A stretch of DNA of 57,740 bases, counting the filler, from Sphacelaria rigidula (lineage: Eukaryota): NCBI GenBank assembly GCA_964200075.2. It is 4 parts of 4 records of this genome, joined end to end, with 100 filler letters (N's around TTAATTAATTAA, not from the genome) between each part and the next. Parts side by side here need not be neighbours in the genome. Positions count along the whole stretch, not along the records: positions 28,926 to 43,283 come from CAXNAA020002294.1; 3 more parts are not named here. One strand, 5' to 3'. Under the pieces are notes generated by a model. The model ran no database searches, was not told where the DNA came from, and saw only the letters and a list, made by a program, of their open reading frames with translations. Every line of letters starts with the position of its first letter. Within the stretch, counting starts at the first letter, position 1. Below are positions 14,364 through 43,383 of this stretch, piece by piece. The translations under genes were made by a program, and so were the position numbers.

Positions 14364-14463
14364 NNNNNNNNNNNNNNNNNNNNNNNNNNNNNNNNNNNNN
14401 NNNNNNNTTAATTAATTAANNNNNNNNNNNNNNNNNNNNNNNNNNNNNNNNNNNNNNNNNNNN
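14364..14463. other. Artificial contig linker N44-TTAATTAATTAA-N44
   Basis: Identical 100-bp spacer with stops in all frames, present three times. Confidence 0.97.
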
Positions 14464-17929: not shown

Positions 17930-17939
17930 NNNNNNNNNN
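17930..17939. other. Scaffold gap next to poly-G and poly-T tracts
   Basis: 10 N. Confidence 0.95.
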
Positions 17940-21200: not shown

Positions 21201-24200
21201 CAACCAGCGGAAACGCTGTACACAAGATAAAGCCCTGTCTGACATTTACTTCATGTTCTCCATTCTCGCGTGCGTGTACGCGGTGCGATGTCTTCAGGAT
21301 TCGACTACAAACTCTCCTCTGTCCAACATCTCGGCGGCCATCCTGGCATGGCCTTGCCCTGCTTCCTATTTGCGACATTTCTACGGTTCGGACGAATCAT
21401 CGCCGGTTGGAATCACCAAATCCACGATTTTTCAGGCCTGATTGCTCGAAAGAGAGAAGACAAGTCGAAAGCTGGTGAAAAAATTCTCCACGCAATGTTT
21501 GCGCCATTCCACGTGCCAGGGGTGCGTATACCTTGAATGCAACGCCGTGAGCGAAGCCCAAGGATTGATTCGTACGAATCAATCACGCTAAAACCAAGTA
21601 ACTTCCAGACGAATCATGAATTCGTCCGGCCCTTGGACATTTCACAGGGACTCAGGCTTCTACCGCTGTCAATAGTCCCATTTCCAACACACCCAAATTT
21701 ATTCGTTTTCATGTGGCATCGACTTGAGCGAAGTGTAAACTCTACTCCTAGCCGAGGGCAAACCCCACTCTTGACGTGTCTCGCATCCTCCGTTTTTTCT
21801 CCTGACTTACACCTCGATCCGTCGCAATACCAGCATGAGGCGGACTGATTGATGTGAGTCATTGATTGGCTGAGTGGTTATCGGACACACTACCCGATTT
21901 GCCACGTATGTAACCGTGATTGCCGAAGAGACACGTCAATATCCCAAGATAATAATAGTAATAACAAGTGGAGGAAACGCGTTTGCGAAGAAAGCTCTAA
22001 TAAGGGGCAACATGGAAATACACGCAGCAGCGAAAGTGAAAAAAAATTGAACAGAGCAAAAAAAAAACATAAGGGAGAGGTCGATCCTCGCTCAGAACAA
22101 AGAAAAGACATCATCTCCCAGGGACTACTTTCGCCGCCATCTCTCCATTCACGGATATCGCGACATTCTTCATCCAGTGTTGTTTCGAAAGGTATGCACA
22201 GCAGGAGAGGCGCACTTGTGCAGATGTCCCGAATCAAAAATATCGTTGTACATATGAACATCCTTTCTGATGAACACACCGCAACATGGGGTGAAACATC
22301 ATAAATGCGATCAAGGCCCTCATTCCCACCACACCGTAGCAGGAATTCAATTACCCCTACATTCATCAGTGATATTTTTTCTCACAATCTCCAAAGCAGC
22401 TACCCCAAACATCAAATTAAAAGAGCACCCATTCCATCCGCTTTCCACGACGAAATTGTCTTGAGGTTCAACCTCACCCGTCCCCTGTGCACAATTCCAA
22501 GGGATCGATAGGTGAGAGAGTAGAGAAACGGACCAGGGTAGGAAACACCACAGCCCCCACGCCCCCGCCCGCCCCCACAACCGATCTTCTCGAGGGGAAG
22601 CCAAAAATCGAAAAGCGGTCCAAGTCGTACCTTGCTACACCCTGGAGTCTTGCAGCGACGGCCTTCTCCATGCCGCCGGCAAAATCTTCGCCCACTCATC
22701 GCAGGCTTAGTGCAACGCTCGTACTGACATGACGAGACCAGCCAGGACTCTTCCGCGTCATTTGTTCTCTGTACCGCTGTGTTCGGTGAAAACGGACAAC
22801 GAAGACAGCGGTAAGCAAGCGAGTGAATCACGCACACACACGACCGACGGCGAATGAATACAAAAGTATGCTGTGTACAGTACATACATGCGCTGGACGA
22901 AAATACATGAGAACCCCCCCCCCCCCCTCCCGAAGTGTTACAAAATAAATTATTCGAGGGATGAGAAGGGACGTGCTGTATGAACAATATTATGAGCTCG
23001 TTATACAAGTTCCACTTCGAACTAATCGACCAACTCCTCCACCACTTATCGTGATTCAGAAATATTACAGTCGCAGTAATAGAGCAACAGCACCGCCATT
23101 CAGACAAATTACCATGTGGCAACACAAAAAAAAAGCTTCCAGAGGTGCATGGAAGGGATACAGCAACCGCACGAGCTATACGAGCAATTCTTCTTCTACG
23201 ACTACAGTCACGTGCGCGCATGCATGCATGATTGACATTGATTAACAATCCAGCCCGTGTTGCATACATGCGAACAACCAACCTTCGTTTTGTGTCGAAG
23301 AAAATAGCATTTCCCAACTCATGTTTCTTCGTCTTTGAGGAAACGGCTGCTGCTGGAGGGGCGACATGGATATGACACAAGAGGCGAAAAGCACGCTACG
23401 GTGGACACGTCGTGCTTATTTATACCCCGCCGGGAAGAATATCTTTGCCGACCGTTCGTCCACGACTAAAATACGTTGAAGGCGTTATAACTGCGGAGTT
23501 TTCGGTCGATAATAGTCAATCGTCCACACAACACGACGTATGTGCATATTTGAATGCAACCAGCAAGCGTTCCAAGACCCGCACTTCTTAGATACGACAA
23601 AAAAACGACGACCTCCCCGTTAAACCCTTCGAGCGCCAGGGGTGGGTCCGTCATTTGTTGAATCGGCATAGTTTTCACTTAAAAAATGACCGTGAGGCCC
23701 ACCGAAAGGGCTAATTTCAGAGCGAGCGAGGAGTCACGACTGCGTGATTCATTTTTCAAGTGAAAATGATGCCGATTCAATGGATGGCGGACCATGGGAG
23801 TTTGAGCGACAGATGTCACTGGAAGATACATGAACCATAATCGCTGTCGTTCAATCATCCTACACGTGCCAGAGGTTAGAGACCTCGGAATATACGGGAT
23901 GCTACCATTGGGGCGATGCTCGAAAAACAGAGAGAGGCTGGTCGATCAGCTATAGGGCCGGGATCACCAGTACAAAGAGATTAACCGCCGACAATCTTCC
24001 GAAAAGGCGGCACCGCGCAACCCGAAGGGTCCAGCGTTTGACGTCAGTGTGGGGTCGTGCATTGAATCGGCCCAATCGGCTCCCATGATACCCCATTCCC
24101 CCCTCACCCCCAGGGCCTGGTCCGGTGAAAACCCGGCGTGCTCCGTCGGGGCTTTGGAGGAATGACTCTCGCATGCAAGATCATGAGTACCATCCCCCCC

Positions 24201-28825: not shown

Positions 28826-28925
28826 NNNNNNNNNNNNNNNNNNNNNNNNNNNNNNNNNNNNNNNNNNNNTTAATTAATTAANNNNNNNNNNNNNNNNNNN
28901 NNNNNNNNNNNNNNNNNNNNNNNNN
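28826..28925. other. Artificial contig linker
   Basis: N44-TTAATTAATTAA-N44. Confidence 0.97.
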
Positions 28926-35800: not shown

Positions 35801-37129
35801 TCGCTGCATTATTATTGTGGTCGATGCTTCAATCGGGCATTTGTATCACACGGTACGGCACGCTGCGGTGCGGTGTCAGGAAACGCAACGTGGTCTGCAC
35901 AATAGCTGGGAGTGCAACCTTACGCGTTACCGCGATGAAAGACAGCTGGAATTCATGCCCTTGCTTCCAATAATGGCAATGCAACGCAGTGAACGCATTG
36001 CAGTGACGCCACGAAGATAAGCCCTGTAATTTTTGTAAGTTACTCTGTCACTTCCCCAGGCATTCTTGCGATCCGTTGGACTCAAGCGTTTTCGTGAATC
36101 CTTTTCGGAGTCCGTCGAAGTTACTTGAAATGATGCTGAAAAACACTGTCCCGGAAGAGGCATCACATAGCATCATTTTTTAATAGCACTTCTCGGAGCA
36201 TCCAGTGAGCACCGACGAAGCCACCAAAGCATCGGGGGAAGATGGTGAACCCAGGCACGAATCACCGCCTTTTGACAACGCTTGTTTTTTCTTAGTTTTG
36301 CGATTGCAATGGTGTAATTAGCCTAACCGCGACGGACAAGAGACTGGCCGGTAGGTCGGCAGACGGAGATATTCATCTGACCGTGCCTGTGGTTAGTTGG
36401 TCCCTATTTTGGAACGGTCAACATCACTTATTCAGCCCTGAAGAACGAGTGCAAAAACTGCCGATGTGTTCATAATGTGATATGTGTTGCAAAATTATCG
36501 TGTGCTCTTGCGCATGTTCCCTGGAGAGAAATATTACAAAATTGCTGTTTTCGTGTATATTCATCTCATCGGTCATCCGCCAATTTCATCAGTGCTTCAA
36601 TGTCACATGGAAGGCCTCTACAATGGATACAAATATTTTCATCTGAGGCCCGCCAGTCGGGGGCTGTCAATTGAAAGTTTTTGTTTATCCCCATCTTGAG
36701 GCCATATGCACCCCGAAATATGTTCGCCACTAGTCCGCAGTCACCATGCATCCTAGGGCAGCGCCTTCTGCGTTATCTGCCGATATCGTTTACTACTCAG
36801 TGTGTTGCGGTGCAGATAGGGGCAGCAAGGAGCACCGCACCCACAGTAGCAAGGAGCGTCGTGATTGCCTGCGGCCATCGTCGCTGGCTAGATCAGTGCA
36901 CCGTTGGCGTGGTGATGGCATCCGGTGTGTTGCCGTGTGGTTGCGTAGTTTGCAAAAGCAGCGGTATGTGCTAATGCTGGGACAGCAGTAAAACCACATG
37001 GAATGTGCCGAAAGAGCGTCACACCTTCGCTACTATGTTTTCTTCCACAATACGTCCATCGAGTGTTGTATTGACTGGATGTACGTGCTTAGGCCGTCTG
37101 CAACGGTTTGCTATTATCCTGCTGGCTCA

Positions 37130-37561
37130 AAACACGGGATTTTGCTAGTTGAGGATGGATCTTCTATTGGGGATGAAAGCCCGGGGAATGAGATCTTCGT
37201 ATTCACACCAAATTTTCGAAGTATGCTTCCACTTCTTCATTTGCTGGTAGCTATTCGCAACTACTATACGCCGTACAAATTTGGATTTCGATAACCGAAA
37301 TGTCGGGGTCTTGGGTGAAGAACCAATGTTGGGGGATTTTAGGTGTCCGATCGGACGCCAAAATTGATTTTTTACCTAGGACCCCGACACTGCGGTTACC
37401 GAAATCCAAATTTGTATGGCGTGTTGTAGTTGTCAATAGCTACCAGCAAGTGAAGAAATGGAAGCATAGTTCGAAGATTTGGTGTGGATACGAAAGTTTT
37501 AATTCTCAGGGTTCTCATCCCCAATGCAAGACCCATCCTCAATTTGTAAAATCCCGTGTTT
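37130..37561. mobile_element. ~430-bp foldback (near-palindromic) element
   Basis: Arms AAACACGGGATTTT... and ...AAAATCCCGTGTTT are complementary over ~200 nt, with centre GGTGTCCGA|TCGGACGCC. Related arms lie at 28507-28750, 42480-42672 and 47125-47761. Confidence 0.85.
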
Positions 37562-39405
37562 CAATTTAATTCTCGGTCGTCTAACGAGCGATACAACATC
37601 TGATGTTTCGGTCACCTGATGATGGTACAGCCTTCAGAGTTTGAGCTTCGATTTGTTCGTGCAGCAGCGGCTCTGCTCGAGGAATTTGTGATTTTTCAGC
37701 CGCACCAGCATGAATCATCTAAGACGGTCGTCTTTCAAGGAAGTGGCGTCCTAGGATAGTGAATTTCATGGAAGTGGTATTGGGTTTGGAAGCATGGCGG
37801 TTGCGAAGTTGTATCAGTTTGAAGGGACGTCCATCTTGGCACCTACGCACAAAATTACGCAAACAGGGACGATTTCACCGTGGAGGACCGCAGACCTGTA
37901 CCCTTGTATTATTATTTAGGTGTGAAATATATTTAGGATGAGCCAAGTGTGTACTCCCGGTGACGTGTGCTGCTGATCAACAGTGTTCCTGCAGACCTAC
38001 AAGAGTCACTGAAGAATCTACAAGTGACGTGTAGATACTGCAATCATCTTATGGATTTACGGGGACCTGGTTGATCTGCGAGAACTTGAATCGGTCAGGT
38101 GCGCGGCCAGTGTAAACTTGCAACATGCCGCTCGCACAGTTGCTAGTAAGCAATCATTTCCCGAGGCATCTACACTGGGTATTTCCTGCATTCGACAGTT
38201 CTGTTGGTCCTGTAGGCATCCCGTACCCTTACCCGACAGTTGTGTAGGTTCTGTTAGCCTCCCATAGCCCGACTTGATAGTTCTGTAAGTAAGTTCTGTA
38301 TACAGTGCTAGCCCTCGCCTAGGTTTAGAGTATATCCTTGCAGGAATACCATTGTGAGGAAACGGGTGCCTGTACAACATTCATACCCTACCAGACAGGT
38401 TCTGCACGTTGTGTAAGACTTTCATATCGGTCCTCGAACGTTCTCGAGGTTCGATAGGAGACATCATCACCTACTGAGCGTACACGTACCCAACAGGACA
38501 CATATTTGCTCATTTGAGTAAAGAGCTGGTATGTCGCCTATTTTTCGAGTATATTATTGTACAACCTCGTTGGTATGGCTTTGAAAGCGCTCACGTTCTG
38601 CGGTATATGGTGGATACAGCAGCGAAAAATGAATACGTGCAAAAAGGCATATCAATTTCAAGTTTTGCGTCCCCGAGTTGCTTGAATCCCGCCCGTCCCT
38701 GCGTATTCCACGAGCCCAATATGATGCACTTTTCCGAATCTCTTTGTTCATGTATGTGTATAACAACAGCGTCCGTAAGCGTGAATCCACACCCAAAGCA
38801 CACGAGTATCTGTCACTAATGCCAGCAAGTGACACCCAATGTTCCCTTTCTTTCTCTCGCATACCAAGCGGCATCTCCTTCGCCGTTACCTGAGTTTCGC
38901 GTCCGCGGATGGTACAGTGCGACTGTACCCCCGTCTCACTTCAACCATCGCCATGACGCCATGATATTTTTGTTTTTGCAATGACGTCAGGTCGATGACT
39001 AAAGGTCACAGCCGGTTGAAAGCGATACCCTGGGCAGAAAGGATATTCTGGAACAGCTGGGTTTGACTGTTGAGGAGGGCCTCTAGCTCAAATGAAGAAC
39101 AGGGCGTAACGGGGGCCACGAAGTTTACGTCATCAGCTCCAGCTCTCACTGCACACGGGATGAATAATCGTCTCATAGTTGAAGCAGCGGTAGACAGTCG
39201 CAAAAGCAGCACGCGTTCCAACGAGGGTTGTTGTGCGTATTGCGAGGCAGTCGTAGCTTGGAGTTGTGCTCACCGCACGCTGAGGTGGGGGTAGGGCATG
39301 TAATGGAAAGGGTGTGTTCGCACACGGGCTACTTCCAAACAGTCGTCATTTGGGTTTGCGGAAAGCAGAAGGCCGGAGTGTTGCCCACAGCATGCCGAGA
39401 CCGGA

Positions 39406-41781
39406 ATGGTGAATGTCCACGCGAGGGCGTGCTCCCGCGGGGGCTGCTCCAAGAAACCGTCGTTCGGGTTGGCGGGCAGCGGAAGGCCGGAGTTTTGCTC
39501 GCAGCACGCCGAGGATGGAATGGTAAATGTTAGCACCAAGACGTGCTCTCGTGAGGGCTGCTCCAAGCAACCGTCGTTCGGGTTGACGGGCAGCGGGAGG
39601 CCGGAGTTTTGCTCGCAACAGGCCGAGGATGGGATGGTAAATGTGATCGACAGGACGTGCTCTCACGAGAGCTGCTCCAAGCAGCCGTCCTTCGAGTTGG
39701 CGGGCAGCAGAAGGCCGGAGTTTTGCCCACAGCACGCCGAGGACGGGATGGTGAATGTCCAGGCAAGGACCTGCTCTCGCGAGGGCTGCTCCAAGCGGCC
39801 GTTGTTCGGGTTGGCGGGCAGCAAAAAGCCGGAGTTTTGCTTACAGCACGCCGAGGACGGGATGGTGAATGTCCAGGCAAGGACGTGCTCTCGCGAGGGC
39901 TGCTCCAAGCGGCCGTCGTTCGGGTTGGCGAGCAGCAAAAGGCCGGAGTTTTGCTTACAGCACGCAGAAGACGGGATGATAAACGTCAGAGCAAGGACGT
40001 GCTCTCGCCAGGACTGCTCCAAGCGCCCGCGGTTCGGGTTGGCGGGCAGCAGAAGGTCGGAGTTTTGCTCACAGCACGCCGAGGCCGGAATGGTGAATGT
40101 CCACGCAAGGACGTGCTCCCGCGGGGGCTGCTTCAAGCAACCGTCGTTCGGGTTGGCGGGCAGCGGCAGGCCGGAGTTTTGCTCGCAGCACGCCGAGGAT
40201 GGAATGGTAAATGTTAGCGCCAAGACTTGCTCTCGCGAGGGCTGCTCCAAGCAACCGTCGTTCGGGTTGGCGGGCAGCGGAAGGCGGCAGTTTTGCTCAC
40301 AGCACGCCGAGGACGGGATGGAAAACCTTCACGCGAAGACGTGCTCTCGCGTTGGCTGTTCTAAGCGACGGTCGTTCGGGTCGTCGGACACCAGGAGGCG
40401 GGAGTTTTGCCCACAGCACGCTGAGCGCGGAATGGTGAATGTTCGGTCCAAGACGTGCTCCCGCGAGGACTGCTCCAAGCGGTCGTCATTCGGGTCGGCG
40501 GGCAGCATAACGCCGGAGTTTTGCTCACAACACGCAGAAGACGGGATGGTGAATGTCCAGGCAAGGACATGCTCTCGCGAGGATCGCTCCAAGCGGCCGT
40601 CATTCGGGTTGGCGGGCAGCAGAAGGCCGGAGTTTTGCTTACAGCACGCGGAGGGCGGGATGGTGAATGTGATTGACCGGACGTGCTCCCACGAGAGCTG
40701 CTCCAAGCGGCCGTCTTTCGGCTTGGCGAGCAGCGGAAGGCCGGAGTTTTGCTCGCAGCACGCCGAGGACGGGATGGTTAATGTGAAGGTGAAGACGCGC
40801 TCTCGCGACGTTTGCCTCACGCAGCCGTCGCGCGGGTTGGCGGGCAGCGGAAGGCCGGAGGTTTACTCGCAGCACGCTAAGGATGGACTGGTGAATGTCC
40901 AGGCAAAGACGTGCTCCCGCGAAGGTTGCCCCACGCAGCCATCGTTTGGGTTGGTGGGTAGCAGAAGGCGGGAGTGTTGCTCCCTACACGCCGAAGAGGA
41001 CATCGTGTATCCTCAGACCAAGACATACTCCCGCGAGGGCTGCCCCACGCAACCGTCGTTTGGATTGGGGAGTAGCACGGGACGGGAGTTTTACTCACAG
41101 CTTGCCGAAGAGGGGGTGGTAAATGTTGGGGCAAGGACGCGCTCCCCCGACAGCTACTCCAAGCGGCCGTCGTTGGGGTCGGCGGTTAGCGGAAGGCCGG
41201 AGTTTTTCTCACTGCATGCCGAGGACGGAATGGCGAATGTCCAGGCAAAGACATGCTCTCGCGAGGGCTGCTCCAAGCGACCGTCGTTCGGGTTGGCGGG
41301 TAGCAGAAGGCCGGAGTTTTGCCCACAGCACGCCGAGGACGGAATGGTGACTGTAGTCGACAGGACGTGCTCCCGCGAGGGCTGCTCCAAGCGAACGTCG
41401 TTCGGGTTGGTGGGTAGCAGAAGGCCAGAGCTTTCCTCTCAGCACGCCGAGGATGGGATGGTGAATGTTGAAGTAAAGACGTGCTCCCGTGAGGGCTGCT
41501 CGAGGAAGCCGTCGTTTGGATTTGTGGGCAACAGAAAAATGGAGCTCTGCGGCCAGCACAGCGAGCAGGGGATGGTCGACGTCTGCGGCAGAAAAAACAT
41601 CCGACGAGGAGCCCGTCGTTCAGAACAACTGACGAGTTGCGCAAAAAAAACGAAACTTGAGATTGTTCTCCAACAATCCGACGATGAGGGAGAACCTACA
41701 GTACGGCCGTCCATGGCCGCAGAGCGCAATGTCCGAACAGGCTGCACTTTCCACCACCACCAGCACCATGAGGAGAACTAG
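39406..41781 (+). CDS. EsV-1-7 cysteine-rich repeat protein (19 x 38-aa C-x4-C-x16-C-x2-H repeats plus a 69-aa tail)
   Basis: Exact 114-bp periodicity; consensus MVNVxxRTCSREGCSKRPSFGLAGSRRPEFCSQHAEDG. This matches the EsV-1-7 / IMMEDIATE UPRIGHT repeat family of brown algae. Confidence 0.92.
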   Translation: MVNVHARACSRGGCSKKPSFGLAGSGRPEFCSQHAEDGMVNVSTKTCSREGCSKQPSFGLTGSGRPEFCSQQAEDGMVNVIDRTCSHESCSKQPSFELAGSRRPEFCPQHAEDGMVNVQARTCSREGCSKRPLFGLAGSKKPEFCLQHAEDGMVNVQARTCSREGCSKRPSFGLASSKRPEFCLQHAEDGMINVRARTCSRQDCSKRPRFGLAGSRRSEFCSQHAEAGMVNVHARTCSRGGCFKQPSFGLAGSGRPEFCSQHAEDGMVNVSAKTCSREGCSKQPSFGLAGSGRRQFCSQHAEDGMENLHAKTCSRVGCSKRRSFGSSDTRRREFCPQHAERGMVNVRSKTCSREDCSKRSSFGSAGSITPEFCSQHAEDGMVNVQARTCSREDRSKRPSFGLAGSRRPEFCLQHAEGGMVNVIDRTCSHESCSKRPSFGLASSGRPEFCSQHAEDGMVNVKVKTRSRDVCLTQPSRGLAGSGRPEVYSQHAKDGLVNVQAKTCSREGCPTQPSFGLVGSRRRECCSLHAEEDIVYPQTKTYSREGCPTQPSFGLGSSTGREFYSQLAEEGVVNVGARTRSPDSYSKRPSLGSAVSGRPEFFSLHAEDGMANVQAKTCSREGCSKRPSFGLAGSRRPEFCPQHAEDGMVTVVDRTCSREGCSKRTSFGLVGSRRPELSSQHAEDGMVNVEVKTCSREGCSRKPSFGFVGNRKMELCGQHSEQGMVDVCGRKNIRRGARRSEQLTSCAKKTKLEIVLQQSDDEGEPTVRPSMAAERNVRTGCTFHHHQHHEEN

Positions 41782-43283
41782 CCTTGCCCACACGGCTAAT
41801 AGGCTTGTCTCGGCGCAAGTCGCATGTGACGTGAATATCGCAGACGTGCCACTCTATGAGGGTGGAACGAACGCCAAGTCTGAGGTAATCGTCTTATAGC
41901 ATCCTTCGTCCGTCTTGACTTCGCATTGCGAGTAATTGGTGCCACGCCCGGTGAAGGTGGCACGCGATATACTACAGATGCATCGCAATGTTGTGCTTTC
42001 GTCGAGATCTGTCACTGCTACGTGGCAATATTTGTGGGCAGGCATCTGGCGAGTAGTAGGCACTTGAGAACCACGCTTTGATCGCGCAAAAATCTTTGTT
42101 CCTCGTGACTGGCAATACATGCATCTCTTGCTCCGTATATTGAGTATCGAAGTGTTCCAGCTCTTCGCTAATCTTGCATCCAAGAAACGTGCACATGTTG
42201 CTGTACCTGCAGGTGTACACGACGTGTGACTGGGCGATGGGCGCTTTGGGGGAGGGCAAGCGAAGGGTAGTATGCCATATTCTTCAATGGTCCCATTCAT
42301 GTGTTTGAAAGAGTGAATATTTCCCAAGGAGGACCGATGTGTTTGGGCAGGAAAATGGTTACTGTGCCATTCCGTGAGGCTTATTCACCACACCGGATAA
42401 CCCTGATGACCGTGGAGTTTTTTCACCTCTAATGGAACCCCAATATTTTGGCTGGATTACCTGATGTCCGTACAGAGGTTTTTCACCCGGGCCCCCCGTA
42501 TTTCAGTTATCGTAATTCAAATTTGAATGGCGTGAAGTAAGTGTAAAAAGCTACCAGTAGGTGAAAAATTGCTTAGTACATGTCGAAGAATTGGGGTGGA
42601 CACGAAGATTTTTATTTTCCGAACTATCAACCTCAGTAGGAAGCTCTATCCTCAATAGTGATGATCGACTGTTACTTCACACCACGCAAGATGATAACGG
42701 CAGTGCGATGACACTTTGGGGGTTGATCGAAGTCACTTGAAGAATATACTGAACCGAACGAACTGTTCGGGGAGGATCATCACGAGGATGCGGTCGAAAA
42801 CGTTCCATGACACATTCAGTGTGGTCGCAAAGGTTGGCCCTGATGGTGAAACCAAGCGAACAGATTTACTGCGTTGGGAGTTTTTGAACAGGAGATGGTG
42901 TCGAAGGTGCTGCTTACCGGCGAGAAAGTCCGAAATAATCCACCAAAGTGCTGCACAACCTGGAGAAGAGTAACAGGGAAGATCATGTTAGTGTAAATCT
43001 CGGGACTCAGCACACAGGCACAATCCACCGTGTTGCCGCCCTTATCCGACTCTGTGGGAGCACAGGTCACCGGGATGTTTGGGCCATACGGTAGACACCC
43101 TGACACCAAAAGTCACTCATACAGAATCCGCTGTAAACGTGTAGGCTAGACTGACGCAACTAGTCAGGTACTTGTGCCGACTCCATCCCACGAGTCGAGG
43201 TCAAAGACGCTCACAGAAAACAGTGTTTTCGTGAGATTGAGAGTAGATGATACGATTGAGAGTGGCTTTGATCATTCGCTTCA

Positions 43284-43383
43284 NNNNNNNNNNNNNNNNN
43301 NNNNNNNNNNNNNNNNNNNNNNNNNNNTTAATTAATTAANNNNNNNNNNNNNNNNNNNNNNNNNNNNNNNNNNNNNNNNNNNN
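43284..43383. other. Artificial contig linker
   Basis: N44-TTAATTAATTAA-N44. Confidence 0.97.

What the first reader, a model, noticed from the sequence alone, without database searches (positions are those of the whole stretch)
39406..41571. EsV-1-7 zinc-finger-like array with TALE-like hypervariable positions: a candidate programmable nucleic-acid reader
Seen: 19 repeats of exactly 38 aa with no indels on a conserved, basic scaffold. Variation concentrates at residues 5-6 (HA, ST, ID, QA, QA, RA, HA, SA, HA, RS, QA, ID, KV, QA, QT, GA, QA, VD, EV), with smaller toggles at residue 17 (K/Q/R), residue 26 (mostly G/R) and residue 32 (mostly S/P/L). Known: EsV-1-7 repeats (C-x4-C-x16-C-x2-H) occur in phaeoviruses and in an expanded brown-algal family including IMMEDIATE UPRIGHT; to my knowledge their ligand is not established. 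Inference: a fixed-length, Zn-stabilised, Arg/Lys-rich array with a variable di-residue resembles TALE, PPR and C2H2 arrays, so each unit may read a base or short motif. That would be a rapidly reshuffled recognition system for viral or transposon defence, or for development.
Basis: partly seen in the sequence, partly recalled or inferred. Interest (0 to 1): 0.75.

Follow-up and report, generated by a model that had tools for sequence, protein, structure and literature searches.

The report
Nineteen-unit EsV-1-7 cysteine-repeat gene
A transcribed gene of a brown-alga-type genome encodes 19 tandem copies of the already known EsV-1-7 zinc-finger-like motif; one residue at the start of each linker varies freely, but the tests run here show no TALE-like base-reading code.

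Summary
Window 39406-41571 (+) holds 19 units of exactly 38 aa with no indels. They lie in an open frame of 825 codons, and Pfam PF19114 (EsV_1_7_cys) matches 19 times (E 1.8e-264).

The TALE analogy does not hold up:
- Only position 5 stands out (2.87 bits, 9 residues); position 6 is Ala in 11 of 19 units.
- Codon 5 changes at about the neutral rate (ratio 1.64, P 0.05 before correction for 38 codons); codon 6 gives 1.01.
- Position 5 is the last residue of the Pfam model. Positions 5-8 form a 4-residue linker of fixed length between modules.
- In 240 relatives, 17 of 38 positions vary strongly between units.
- Positions 5 and 6 are also among the fastest to change between orthologue-like proteins.
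- AlphaFold2 gives confident small modules (pLDDT 78.9) with no confident packing between them (pTM 0.40).
- No solved fold matched clearly.

Six of 19 units have lost zinc ligands, and those units fold poorly in the model. Contigs that behave like RNA show that the locus is transcribed and spliced.

Verdict: a long, young, partly decaying member of the known brown-algal EsV-1-7 family. Its ligand remains unknown.

The parts
38991..39405 (+). 5' leader inside the large exon. It begins after a splice acceptor (T-rich tract, then cag at 38988-38990) and holds six upstream ATGs.
   Evidence: In runs X1, X2 and X8 (kind guessed as RNA), contigs start at 38987, run to 39484 with no mismatch, and carry 36-78 unmatched letters before 38987. 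These runs have no cover over 37595-38954, apart from depth about 2.5 at 37937-38270 in X2. The DNA-like run X5 is flat at depth 75.9 across the whole stretch. Sequence read; upstream ATGs counted.
39243..39405 (+). Decayed 5' edge of the array: a frameshifted remnant (about 39243-39305), TAA at 39301-39303, then an in-frame partial unit 0 (about 39334-39405) that lacks the first Cys knuckle.
   Evidence: A unit HMM built here hits the open frame at residues 11-41 (model positions 7-37, i-E 3.9e-10). It hits another frame weakly (39183-39530, residues 21-41, E 0.048). Sequence read.
39406..41781 (+). Coding sequence of 791 aa plus stop. The first ATG after the in-frame TAA has the context GGAATGG.
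39406..41571 (+). 19 tandem EsV-1-7 units of 38 aa (114 nt). Unit k starts at 39406+114(k-1).
39520..39633 (+). Unit 2, ligand lost (H34 to Q).
40546..40659 (+). Unit 11, ligand lost (C14 to R).
40774..40887 (+). Unit 13, ligands lost (C9 to R, C31 to Y). Weak HMM score (24.1 bits against about 59-62 for intact units).
   Evidence: Model pLDDT is 42-56 over its first 20 residues.
41002..41229 (+). Units 15 and 16, each with three of four ligands lost. They have the weakest HMM scores (17.5 and 20.9 bits).
   Evidence: Model pLDDT is 39-45 over unit 15 and 42-61 over unit 16, against 70-76 for the intact unit 14 in the same model.
41344..41457 (+). Unit 18, ligand lost (C31 to S).
41572..41778 (+). 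C-terminal tail of 69 aa. It starts like a unit (MVDV), then has a basic stretch (GRKNIRRGARR ... KKTK), an acidic patch and a His-rich end. No family match.
   Evidence: The resemblance of the basic stretch to a nuclear localisation signal is judged by eye and was not tested.

Best explanation
This is a lineage-specific, transcribed member of the known EsV-1-7 cysteine-rich repeat family, which is greatly expanded in brown algae.

**Shown**
- One large exon encodes 19 tandem 38-aa modules.
- A module runs from reader position 9 to position 4 of the next unit: a C-x4-C knuckle, a short strand at F20-L22, C31-x2-H34, then the conserved G-M-V-N-V strand.
- Modules are joined by a 4-residue basic linker (positions 5-8, x-x-K/R-x). 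Its length is fixed across the family.
- The units are under purifying selection overall (omega about 0.4).
- The most similar units share descent: units 1-2 resemble 7-8, unit 3 resembles 12, and units 4, 5, 11 and 17 resemble each other.
- The array is decaying at its 5' edge and in units 13-16.

**Inferred**
- The array grew recently by unit and block duplication through unequal crossing-over.
- Each intact module binds one zinc ion through its CCCH ligands.
- The modules fold independently, like beads on a string.
- The protein most likely binds a nucleic acid through many modules at once, as polydactyl zinc-finger proteins do.
- Whatever recognition there is would be spread over many surface positions, not a di-residue.
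- Position 5 stands out here because it is the least constrained residue (the first residue of the linker) in an array too young for the other variable positions to have diverged.
For: **Family.** PF19114 matches 19 times at 853.6 bits. There are 131 long and 224 short relatives, the named ones from Sphacelaria, Pylaiella, Ectocarpus, Scytosiphon, Laminaria and Ascophyllum. The best reaches only 43% identity (long) or 66% over 15% of the query (short), so no orthologue was found.

**Selection.** Omega is 0.39 pairwise and 0.41 on a tree. No stop is seen where 7.5 are expected.

**Young array.** Mean unit identity is 0.67, against a median of 0.49 in 119 arrays. It has 19 units, against at most 11 in the 240 relatives retrieved. 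The eight unit pairs at 89% nucleotide identity or more all share residue 5.

**Position 5 is near-neutral and at the linker.** The Pfam model covers reader position 9 to the next position 5. DSSP shows strands at 20-22 and at M1-N3 of the next unit, with coil over positions 5-8. Codon 5 gives a ratio of 1.64 (P 0.05 uncorrected) and codon 6 gives 1.01. Nucleotide diversity of codon 5 is 0.60-0.66, against 0.12-0.70 (mean 0.41) at 11 four-fold sites.

**Fixed linker.** V4 to the next C9 is 4 residues in 333 of 390 cases. H34 to the next C9 is 12 residues in 496 of 577.

**Variation is spread in the family**.

**Independent modules.** pLDDT 78.9 with pTM 0.40.

**Decay.** 13 of 19 units are intact, against 618 of 656 (94%) in relatives. 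This is the third-lowest share of 64 arrays. With the same 49 alignment rows, pLDDT falls from 78.9 (units 7-10) to 57.7 (units 13-16).

**Transcription and splicing.**

**Nucleic-acid leaning.**
- pI 8.98.
- K/R at position 7 in 190 of 260 units.
- An Ectocarpus Tc1/mariner transposase has an N-terminal EsV-1-7 domain (PMC12477816, passage read).
- IMM, a family member, is a developmental regulator (10.1101/2024.02.19.579948, passages read).
Against: - There is no direct evidence of zinc or nucleic-acid binding.
- The only structural resemblances are weak, and they are to protein-binding zinc modules. The best Foldseek E-values are 1.1 (nsp13 zinc-binding domain) and 1.3 (PZP), followed by LIM and RING; VIA gives Z 3.2 or less, to RING domains.
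- Codon 5 is nominally above neutral, so mild diversifying selection cannot be excluded.
- The same positions (17, 6, 5, 19) are the most diverse in 16 other homogeneous arrays. That could reflect adaptive diversification rather than weak constraint.
- The 415-nt leader holds six upstream ATGs, one of which opens a 76-codon frame overlapping the main start. Translation may therefore be poor.
- A third of the units are broken, so the gene may be on its way to loss.
- I had no model coordinates, so the exposure of residues 5-6 is inferred from secondary structure only.
- The upstream exon seen in the RNA-like contigs was not found in the window.
Confidence: 0.55

Rival explanations
1. One reading: a programmable reader. 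Each 38-aa unit reads one base or short motif, and residues 5-6 act as a TALE-like specificity di-residue on a constant scaffold.
For: - Position 5 has the highest entropy (2.87 bits) on a fixed-length, basic, indel-free scaffold.
- Codon 5 gives a ratio of 1.64, nominally above neutral.
- Linker length is fixed across the family.
- Positions 5 and 6 are in the top three most diverse positions in 5 and 6 of 16 other homogeneous arrays.
Against: - Position 6 is Ala in 11 of 19 units and evolves neutrally.
- The codon 5 excess is P 0.05 before correction for 38 codons.
- The units differ at many other positions, with 115.5 of 140 nonsynonymous changes lying outside codons 5-6.
- The most similar unit pairs never differ at residue 5 (8 of 8).
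- In three homogeneous arrays position 5 does not vary at all.
- Between orthologue-like proteins positions 5 and 6 change in 36% and 35% of comparisons. That places them among the fastest positions, not conserved as a code for a conserved target would be.
- No confident packing between units (pTM 0.40).
- 6 of 19 units have lost ligands.
Confidence: 0.04
2. A protein-binding scaffold. The zinc modules act as docking sites between proteins, as RING, LIM, PHD and B-box modules do, and do not read nucleic acid.
For: - The only structural resemblances, though weak, are to RING, LIM, PHD/PZP and B-box-type modules.
- Each unit keeps an identity of its own over many surface positions that is partly conserved between orthologue-like proteins. 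For example, position 29 differs in 0.15 of orthologue comparisons against 0.63 between units, position 3 in 0.18 against 0.64, and position 26 in 0.18 against 0.59.
- A preprint states that none of the Ectocarpus EsV-1-7 domain genes carries any other Pfam domain annotation (10.64898/2026.04.27.720984, passage read).
Against: - All fold matches lie in the range that the tools call common arrangements (E above 1, Z 3.2 or less).
- The scaffold and linker are basic.
- An EsV-1-7 domain sits at the N-terminus of a transposase, where DNA-binding domains usually sit (PMC12477816; the usual placement is recalled knowledge).
Confidence: 0.2
3. A gene on its way out. The array is a recently amplified, still transcribed copy that no longer makes a working protein. 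The open frame and the omega below 1 are left over from its functional past.
For: - 6 of 19 units lack ligands, against 6% in relatives.
- The ligand codons are not strictly conserved: 11 nonsynonymous changes against 41 expected if neutral, a ratio of 0.27, close to the gene-wide 0.41.
- The 5' edge is decayed, with a stop.
- Six upstream ATGs.
- Units 15-16 fold poorly in the model.
- No orthologue was found.
Against: - No stop and no indel in 2478 nt, despite 302 differences from the consensus (0.0002 of simulations).
- Omega is 0.4.
- Transcribed, with depth 86-138 in the RNA-like contigs.
- Degenerate fingers are also common in working polydactyl zinc-finger genes (recalled knowledge).
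Confidence: 0.15

Closest known systems
EsV-1-7 domain family (Pfam PF19114; Ectocarpus virus EsV-1 gene 7; Ectocarpus IMMEDIATE UPRIGHT; 2018 members catalogued in 31 brown-algal and sister genomes)
   Same: - Same motif, C-x4-C-x16-C-x2-H, followed by G-M-V-N/D-V.
- Same commonest period of 38 aa.
- Same tandem arrangement, and no other Pfam domain.
- Relatives are from brown algae (10.1101/2024.02.19.579948, passages read).
   Different: - 19 units, against at most 11 in the 240 relatives retrieved here. IMM has five.
- More homogeneous than most arrays (0.67 against a median of 0.49).
- An unusually high share of units without ligands.
- No orthologue found.
Polydactyl C2H2 zinc-finger arrays (for example KRAB-ZNF proteins)
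   Same: It works like them in outline:
- small zinc modules in tandem;
- a linker of fixed length (4 aa in 333 of 390 cases);
- a basic protein;
- growth by unit duplication;
- degenerate units tolerated;
- lineage-specific expansion.
   Different: - CCCH ligands with different spacing.
- No zf-C2H2 Pfam match at E 1 or better.
- No helix of 4 or more residues in the model of the intact units.
- In C2H2 arrays the linker is conserved and the helix positions vary (recalled knowledge). Here the start of the linker is the most variable place.
TALE repeats (also PPR and PUF repeats)
   Same: Fixed unit length, and one position far more variable than the rest within this array.
   Different: - TALE repeats are helical, pack into a superhelix and are near-identical apart from the two specificity residues (recalled knowledge).
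- Here the modules are zinc knuckles with short strands and no confident packing (pTM 0.40).
- The units are 78% identical in DNA, and variation is spread over many positions in the family.
Zf_WRKY19 cysteine-rich repeats (Pfam PF24906)
   Same: - A similar C-x4-C ... [FY]-C-x2-H style motif.
- It occurs together with PF19114 in three relatives (P0007, P0049, P0203).
- It is present in another ORF of this window.
   Different: A shorter module (24-position model). The array itself does not match PF24906 at E 1 or better. Its function is also unknown to me.

Membership tests
EsV-1-7 cysteine-rich repeat family (PF19114) | Match to the Pfam model above its gathering score | tested here: met
   853.6 bits against a cut-off of 25; 19 stretches; E 1.8e-264.
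EsV-1-7 cysteine-rich repeat family (PF19114) | C-x4-C-x16-C-x2-H ligand pattern in each repeat | tested here: met
   Intact in 13 of 19 units. Units 2, 11, 13, 15, 16 and 18 have lost 1-3 ligands. Relatives: 618 of 656 units intact.
EsV-1-7 cysteine-rich repeat family (PF19114) | Tandem repeats at the family's usual spacing | tested here: met
   The period is 38 aa throughout. In 120 relatives the commonest spacings are 38 (347), 37 (131), 39 (45) and 40 (24).
EsV-1-7 cysteine-rich repeat family (PF19114) | Zinc binding by the CCCH residues | not testable with these tools
   AlphaFold2 as run here models no metal. Only the ligand spacing and the drop in pLDDT in ligand-less units bear on it.
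TALE-like programmable repeat readers | Near-identical repeats whose differences are confined to the specificity residues | tested here: not met
   Mean unit identity is 78% in DNA. 115.5 of 140 nonsynonymous changes lie outside codons 5-6. The 8 most similar pairs do not differ at residue 5.
TALE-like programmable repeat readers | Repeats pack into one continuous solenoid that tracks the polymer | tested here: inconclusive
   pTM is 0.40 with per-residue pLDDT 78.9, and only 3-residue strands are predicted. No ligand was in the model and I had no coordinates.
TALE-like programmable repeat readers | Specificity residues show a selective signature distinct from the scaffold | tested here: inconclusive
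   Codon 5 ratio 1.64, P 0.05 uncorrected; codon 6 ratio 1.01. In relatives, positions 5 and 6 change between orthologue-like proteins as fast as, or faster than, other variable positions (0.36 and 0.35 against a mean of 0.30).
TALE-like programmable repeat readers | Sequence-specific nucleic-acid binding with one unit per base or motif | not testable with these tools
   The complex predictor takes no nucleic acid. No binding data were found in the papers searched.
C2H2 polydactyl zinc fingers | Match to the zf-C2H2 sequence families | tested here: not met
   The Pfam scan at E 1 or better lists only PF19114 and two sub-threshold chance-level rows.
C2H2 polydactyl zinc fingers | Beta-beta-alpha fold | tested here: inconclusive
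   No helix of 4 or more residues in the model of units 7-10. There is no clear fold match in Foldseek or VIA, and a missing match does not exclude a fold.
C2H2 polydactyl zinc fingers | Conserved fixed-length linker between modules | tested here: met
   Length is 4 residues in 333 of 390 cases. The first two linker residues are the variable ones, unlike TGEKP (the latter is recalled knowledge).

The most novel reading that the evidence does not exclude
EsV-1-7 arrays are modular readers of a linear polymer (DNA or RNA). Specificity would be set by a small recurrent set of fast-diverging positions: 5 and 6 at the linker start, and 17 and 19 flanking the conserved Pro18. Long young arrays such as this one would be new specificities being built by unit duplication and diversification, for instance against transposons or integrated giant viruses. 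That would be a new class of programmable zinc-finger array, specific to stramenopiles and their viruses.
Probability: 0.08. Interest if true: 0.85.

Novelty: new member of a known kind. Interest (0 to 1): 0.3.

Why it matters
The EsV-1-7 family is one of the largest gene-family expansions in brown algae. It includes a developmental regulator (IMM), is shared with giant viruses, and has no known ligand or structure.

This locus is the longest array I met: 19 units, against at most 11 in 240 relatives. It is young enough to show which positions diverge first.

The practical output is a short list of positions to mutate in a binding study:
- positions 17, 6, 5 and 19 diverge first in young arrays;
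- positions 29, 3 and 26 differ between units yet are kept between orthologue-like proteins.

The report also cautions that the eye-catching di-residue is mostly one nearly neutral linker residue.

Tried and rejected
- **Whole genome:** none is held for this window.
- **Solved structures by sequence:** 0 matches at E 10 or better.
- **Foldseek against PDB with the 4-unit model:** 0 matches at E 0.001 or better. Best rows were the nsp13 zinc-binding domain (E 1.1), JADE1 PZP (1.3), LIM, RING and NEIL3 zf-GRF (7.3).
- **VIA wide search:** 8 chains at Z 2 or more, none at Z 5 or more. The best was a RING domain at Z 3.2, rmsd 2.5 over 42 residues, all on model residues 1-45. I draw no fold assignment from these.
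- **ESM Atlas**, named clusters without PF19114: no usable hit.
- **Sequencing runs:** no RNA holder is listed as such. The RNA nature of X1, X2 and X8 is my inference from their cover pattern. X1 and X8 may be one data set filed twice.
- **Upstream exon:** the 30 letters that precede 38987 in the RNA-like contigs, and two 16-letter parts of them, have no match in the window at up to 2 or 1 mismatches. The exon therefore lies outside the window, in one of the seven N runs (274 nt), or the contigs are chimeric.
- **Orthologue of this array:** none among 131 long and 224 short hits. Only 8000 candidates were scored in each search, only the best 120 of each are listed, and proteins over 1385 aa were not searched. 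Conservation of residues 5-6 at this locus could therefore not be tested.
- **Orthologue analysis, first version:** with 9 hand-made groups, position 6 looked conserved between orthologues (0.14 against 0.79 between units). This did not hold with 18 automatic groups and 86 unit slots (0.35, bootstrap 0.19-0.52). I go by the larger set.
- **Covariation:** no signal between positions 17/19 of one unit and 5/6 of the next (corrected mutual information 0.03 or less). The top pairs were the same position in neighbouring units. My idea that these four positions form one patch therefore has no support beyond the strand order.
- **Other EsV-1-7 units in the window:** none at E below 0.01 outside this locus.
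- **Pfam on 15 other long ORFs of the window:** one hit only, so I found no sign of a virus insert. This was not a proper test.
- **Macaisne et al. 2017** (the founding paper): not held. I know it only through passages in papers that cite it.
- **Supplements:** the tables of the two preprints that list the family members are closed. I could not check whether this gene is already catalogued.
- **Base-change spectrum of the units**: nothing of note.
Full report
**1. The observation**

Window 39304..41781 (+) is open from stop to stop for 825 codons. It is the longest frame of the window; the next has 348 codons. From the ATG at 39406 the protein is 19 consecutive units of exactly 38 residues, ending at 41571, followed by a 69-residue tail. 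Tandem Repeats Finder sees one array of period 114 with 19.4 copies, 79% matches and score 2299. Pfam PF19114 (EsV_1_7_cys) matches 19 times at 853.6 bits against a cut-off of 25.

The array is basic, with pI 8.97. The frame is kept by selection:
- With the observed 302 differences from the unit consensus placed at random, 7.5 stops are expected and none is seen. Only 0.0002 of 5000 simulations had none.
- The other five frames of the array hold 7-24 stops.
- Omega among units is 0.39 by Nei-Gojobori and 0.41 by a parsimony count on a tree.

**2.

- Only 13 of 19 units keep all four ligands. Units 2, 11, 13, 15, 16 and 18 have lost one to three.
- In relatives 618 of 656 full units (94%) are intact. 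This array has the third-lowest share of 64 arrays with six or more units.
- With the same 49 alignment rows, AlphaFold2 gives mean pLDDT 78.9 for the intact units 7-10 and 57.7 for units 13-16. In the second model the intact unit 14 scores 70-76 and unit 15 scores 39-45.
- The array continues upstream in decayed form: a partial in-frame unit after a TAA at 39301-39303, and a frameshifted remnant before it.
- The Pfam model runs from reader position 9 to position 5 of the next unit.

**3. How concentrated is the variation, and is it more than neutral?**

Within the array, position 5 has 2.87 bits and nine residues. Next come position 26 (1.85), 6 (1.78), 37 (1.61), 12 (1.51), and 13 and 32 (1.48). 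Position 6 is Ala in 11 of 19 units.

All three bases of codon 5 have diversity 0.60-0.66. Eleven four-fold sites range from 0.12 to 0.70 with a mean of 0.41. First and second codon positions elsewhere average 0.17.

The tree was built without codons 5-6. On it, codon 5 shows 16.5 nonsynonymous changes against 10.0 expected at the synonymous rate. The ratio is 1.64 and the Poisson P is 0.05 before any correction for 38 codons. Codon 6 shows 8.0 against 7.9, and every other codon is at 0.80 or below. The tree rests on 108 bases and ignores gene conversion, so these are rough figures.

The eight unit pairs at 89% nucleotide identity or more all share residue 5, and seven of them share residue 6. 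Units fall into types that differ at several positions together. For example, units 3 and 12 share I5, D6, H11 and S13.

Position 5 is therefore the fastest site, at or slightly above the neutral rate. Position 6 is simply unconstrained. The youngest duplicates show no diversification.

**4. The family**

Two searches gave 131 long and 224 short relatives, of which 240 were listed and retrieved. The named ones are from brown algae. The best identity is 43% (long) and 66% over 15% of the query (short), so no orthologue is on record.

Spacing:
- The commonest period is 38, then 37. The difference lies in the C14-C31 spacing (x16 in 514 and x15 in 193 of 757 cases).
- The linker from V4 to the next C9 is 4 residues in 333 of 390 cases.

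Spread of variation:
- In 260 units of period 38, entropy exceeds 3 bits at positions 5, 6, 10, 11, 12, 15, 17, 19, 22, 23, 29, 33, 36 and 37.
- In 18 groups of orthologue-like proteins (86 unit slots), 17 of 38 positions differ between units of one array in 60% or more of comparisons.
- Between orthologue-like proteins, positions 5, 6 and 17 differ in 0.36, 0.35 and 0.39 of comparisons. The mean is 0.30 for the variable positions and 0.22 overall.
- An earlier run on nine hand-made groups had suggested that position 6 is conserved between orthologues (0.14). The larger set does not bear this out.
- Positions 29, 3 and 26 do show the pattern 'different between units, kept between orthologues' (ratios 0.24-0.30).

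In 16 other homogeneous arrays the most diverse positions are 17 (0.76), 6 (0.70), 5 (0.61) and 19 (0.57). Position 17 is in the top three in 9 arrays, position 6 in 6 and position 5 in 5. Position 5 does not vary at all in 3 arrays. A small set of positions therefore diverges first in young arrays, and 5 and 6 belong to it, but it is neither a di-residue nor constant.

**5. Structure**

The 4-unit model has pLDDT 78.9 but pTM 0.40. Its only regular elements are 3-residue strands at F20-L22 and at M1-N3 of the following unit, and positions 5-8 are coil. I had no coordinates, so exposure is inferred.

Foldseek found nothing at E 0.001 or better, and VIA found nothing at Z 5 or more. The weak rows are zinc modules of many kinds. 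No solved chain matches by sequence. Covariation gave no support for a patch joining positions 17/19 with 5/6 of the next unit.

**6. Expression and gene model**

Eight public runs of one coded organism hold the stretch. I laid four of them on 37000-39520.
- Run X5 is flat at depth 75.9, as DNA would be.
- Runs X1, X2 and X8 have no cover over 37595-38954, apart from depth about 2.5 at 37937-38270 in X2.
- In those three runs a contig starts at 38987 and runs without mismatch to 39484, at depth 86-138. It carries 36-78 foreign letters before 38987.
- The genome there reads a T-rich tract followed by cag|G, which is a standard acceptor.

I infer a spliced transcript whose large exon starts near 38991. 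X1 and X8 may be the same data set. The upstream exon is not in the window.

The contig is colinear across the TAA at 39301, so the coding frame starts at 39406, in a good context (GGAATGG). It follows a 415-nt leader with six upstream ATGs, one of which opens a 76-codon frame overlapping the start.

**7. What is known**

The family is described as a possible new class of zinc finger.
- 2018 members have been catalogued, and the genes tend to lie in tandem arrays. IMM is a developmental regulator (10.1101/2024.02.19.579948, passages).
- It is the largest orthogroup across brown algal genomes. Its genes are expressed with high specificity, preferentially in unicellular stages, and in Ectocarpus carry no other Pfam domain annotation (10.64898/2026.04.27.720984, passages).
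[quoted passage not shown] Four full-text searches found no paper that reports a ligand, a structure or hypervariable positions. The founding paper (Macaisne et al. 2017) is not held.

**8. Verdict**

The object is real and is a new, unusually long and young member of a known family. Nucleic-acid binding is the most likely activity but remains an inference. The TALE-like di-residue code is not supported. I put the strict version at about 4%. A looser version, with modular reading and hot-spot positions 5, 6, 17 and 19, I put at about 8%.

Noticed in passing
window 22415-23395 (-): A 327-codon open frame holds a match to Pfam PF24906 Zf_WRKY19 (E 6.5e-07, 29.5 bits against a cut-off of 27) at CQYERCTKPAMSGRRFCRRHGEGRRCKTPGCSKV. 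The Cys/His motif is in the same C-x4-C ... FC-x2-H style. PF24906 also occurs together with PF19114 in three relatives (P0007, P0049, P0203). The two motifs may be related.
   Followed up: partly
window 37255-37594: A high-copy repeat lies about 1.4 kb upstream of the exon. Summed contig depth in the DNA-like run X5 is 30,798 to 378,332 against 75.9 in the flanks. The RNA-like runs also cover it, and several joints and loose ends fall inside it. It is probably a short transposable element.
   Followed up: no
window 38987 and upstream: The RNA-like contigs carry 36-78 letters before the acceptor that occur nowhere in the 57.7-kb window. The first exon is therefore more than 39 kb away, hidden in an N run, on another scaffold, or the contigs are chimeric.
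   Followed up: partly
window 14364-14463, 17930-17939, 28826-28925, 43284-43383: There are seven runs of N. Six are of 44 nt and lie in pairs 12 nt apart; one is of 10 nt (274 nt in all).
   Followed up: no
window 38001-42000: The array is richer in G+C (0.60 over 40001-42000) than the rest of the window (0.45-0.53), with positive GC skew.
   Followed up: no
relatives (240 proteins): Positions 29, 3 and 26 of the unit differ between units of one array (0.59-0.64) but are mostly kept between orthologue-like proteins (0.15-0.18). This is the signature expected of unit-specific functional residues.
   Followed up: partly
window 37937-38270: Run X2 alone has two low-depth contigs (about 2.5) inside what I read as the intron. 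They may be unspliced RNA, another transcript or DNA carry-over.
   Followed up: no
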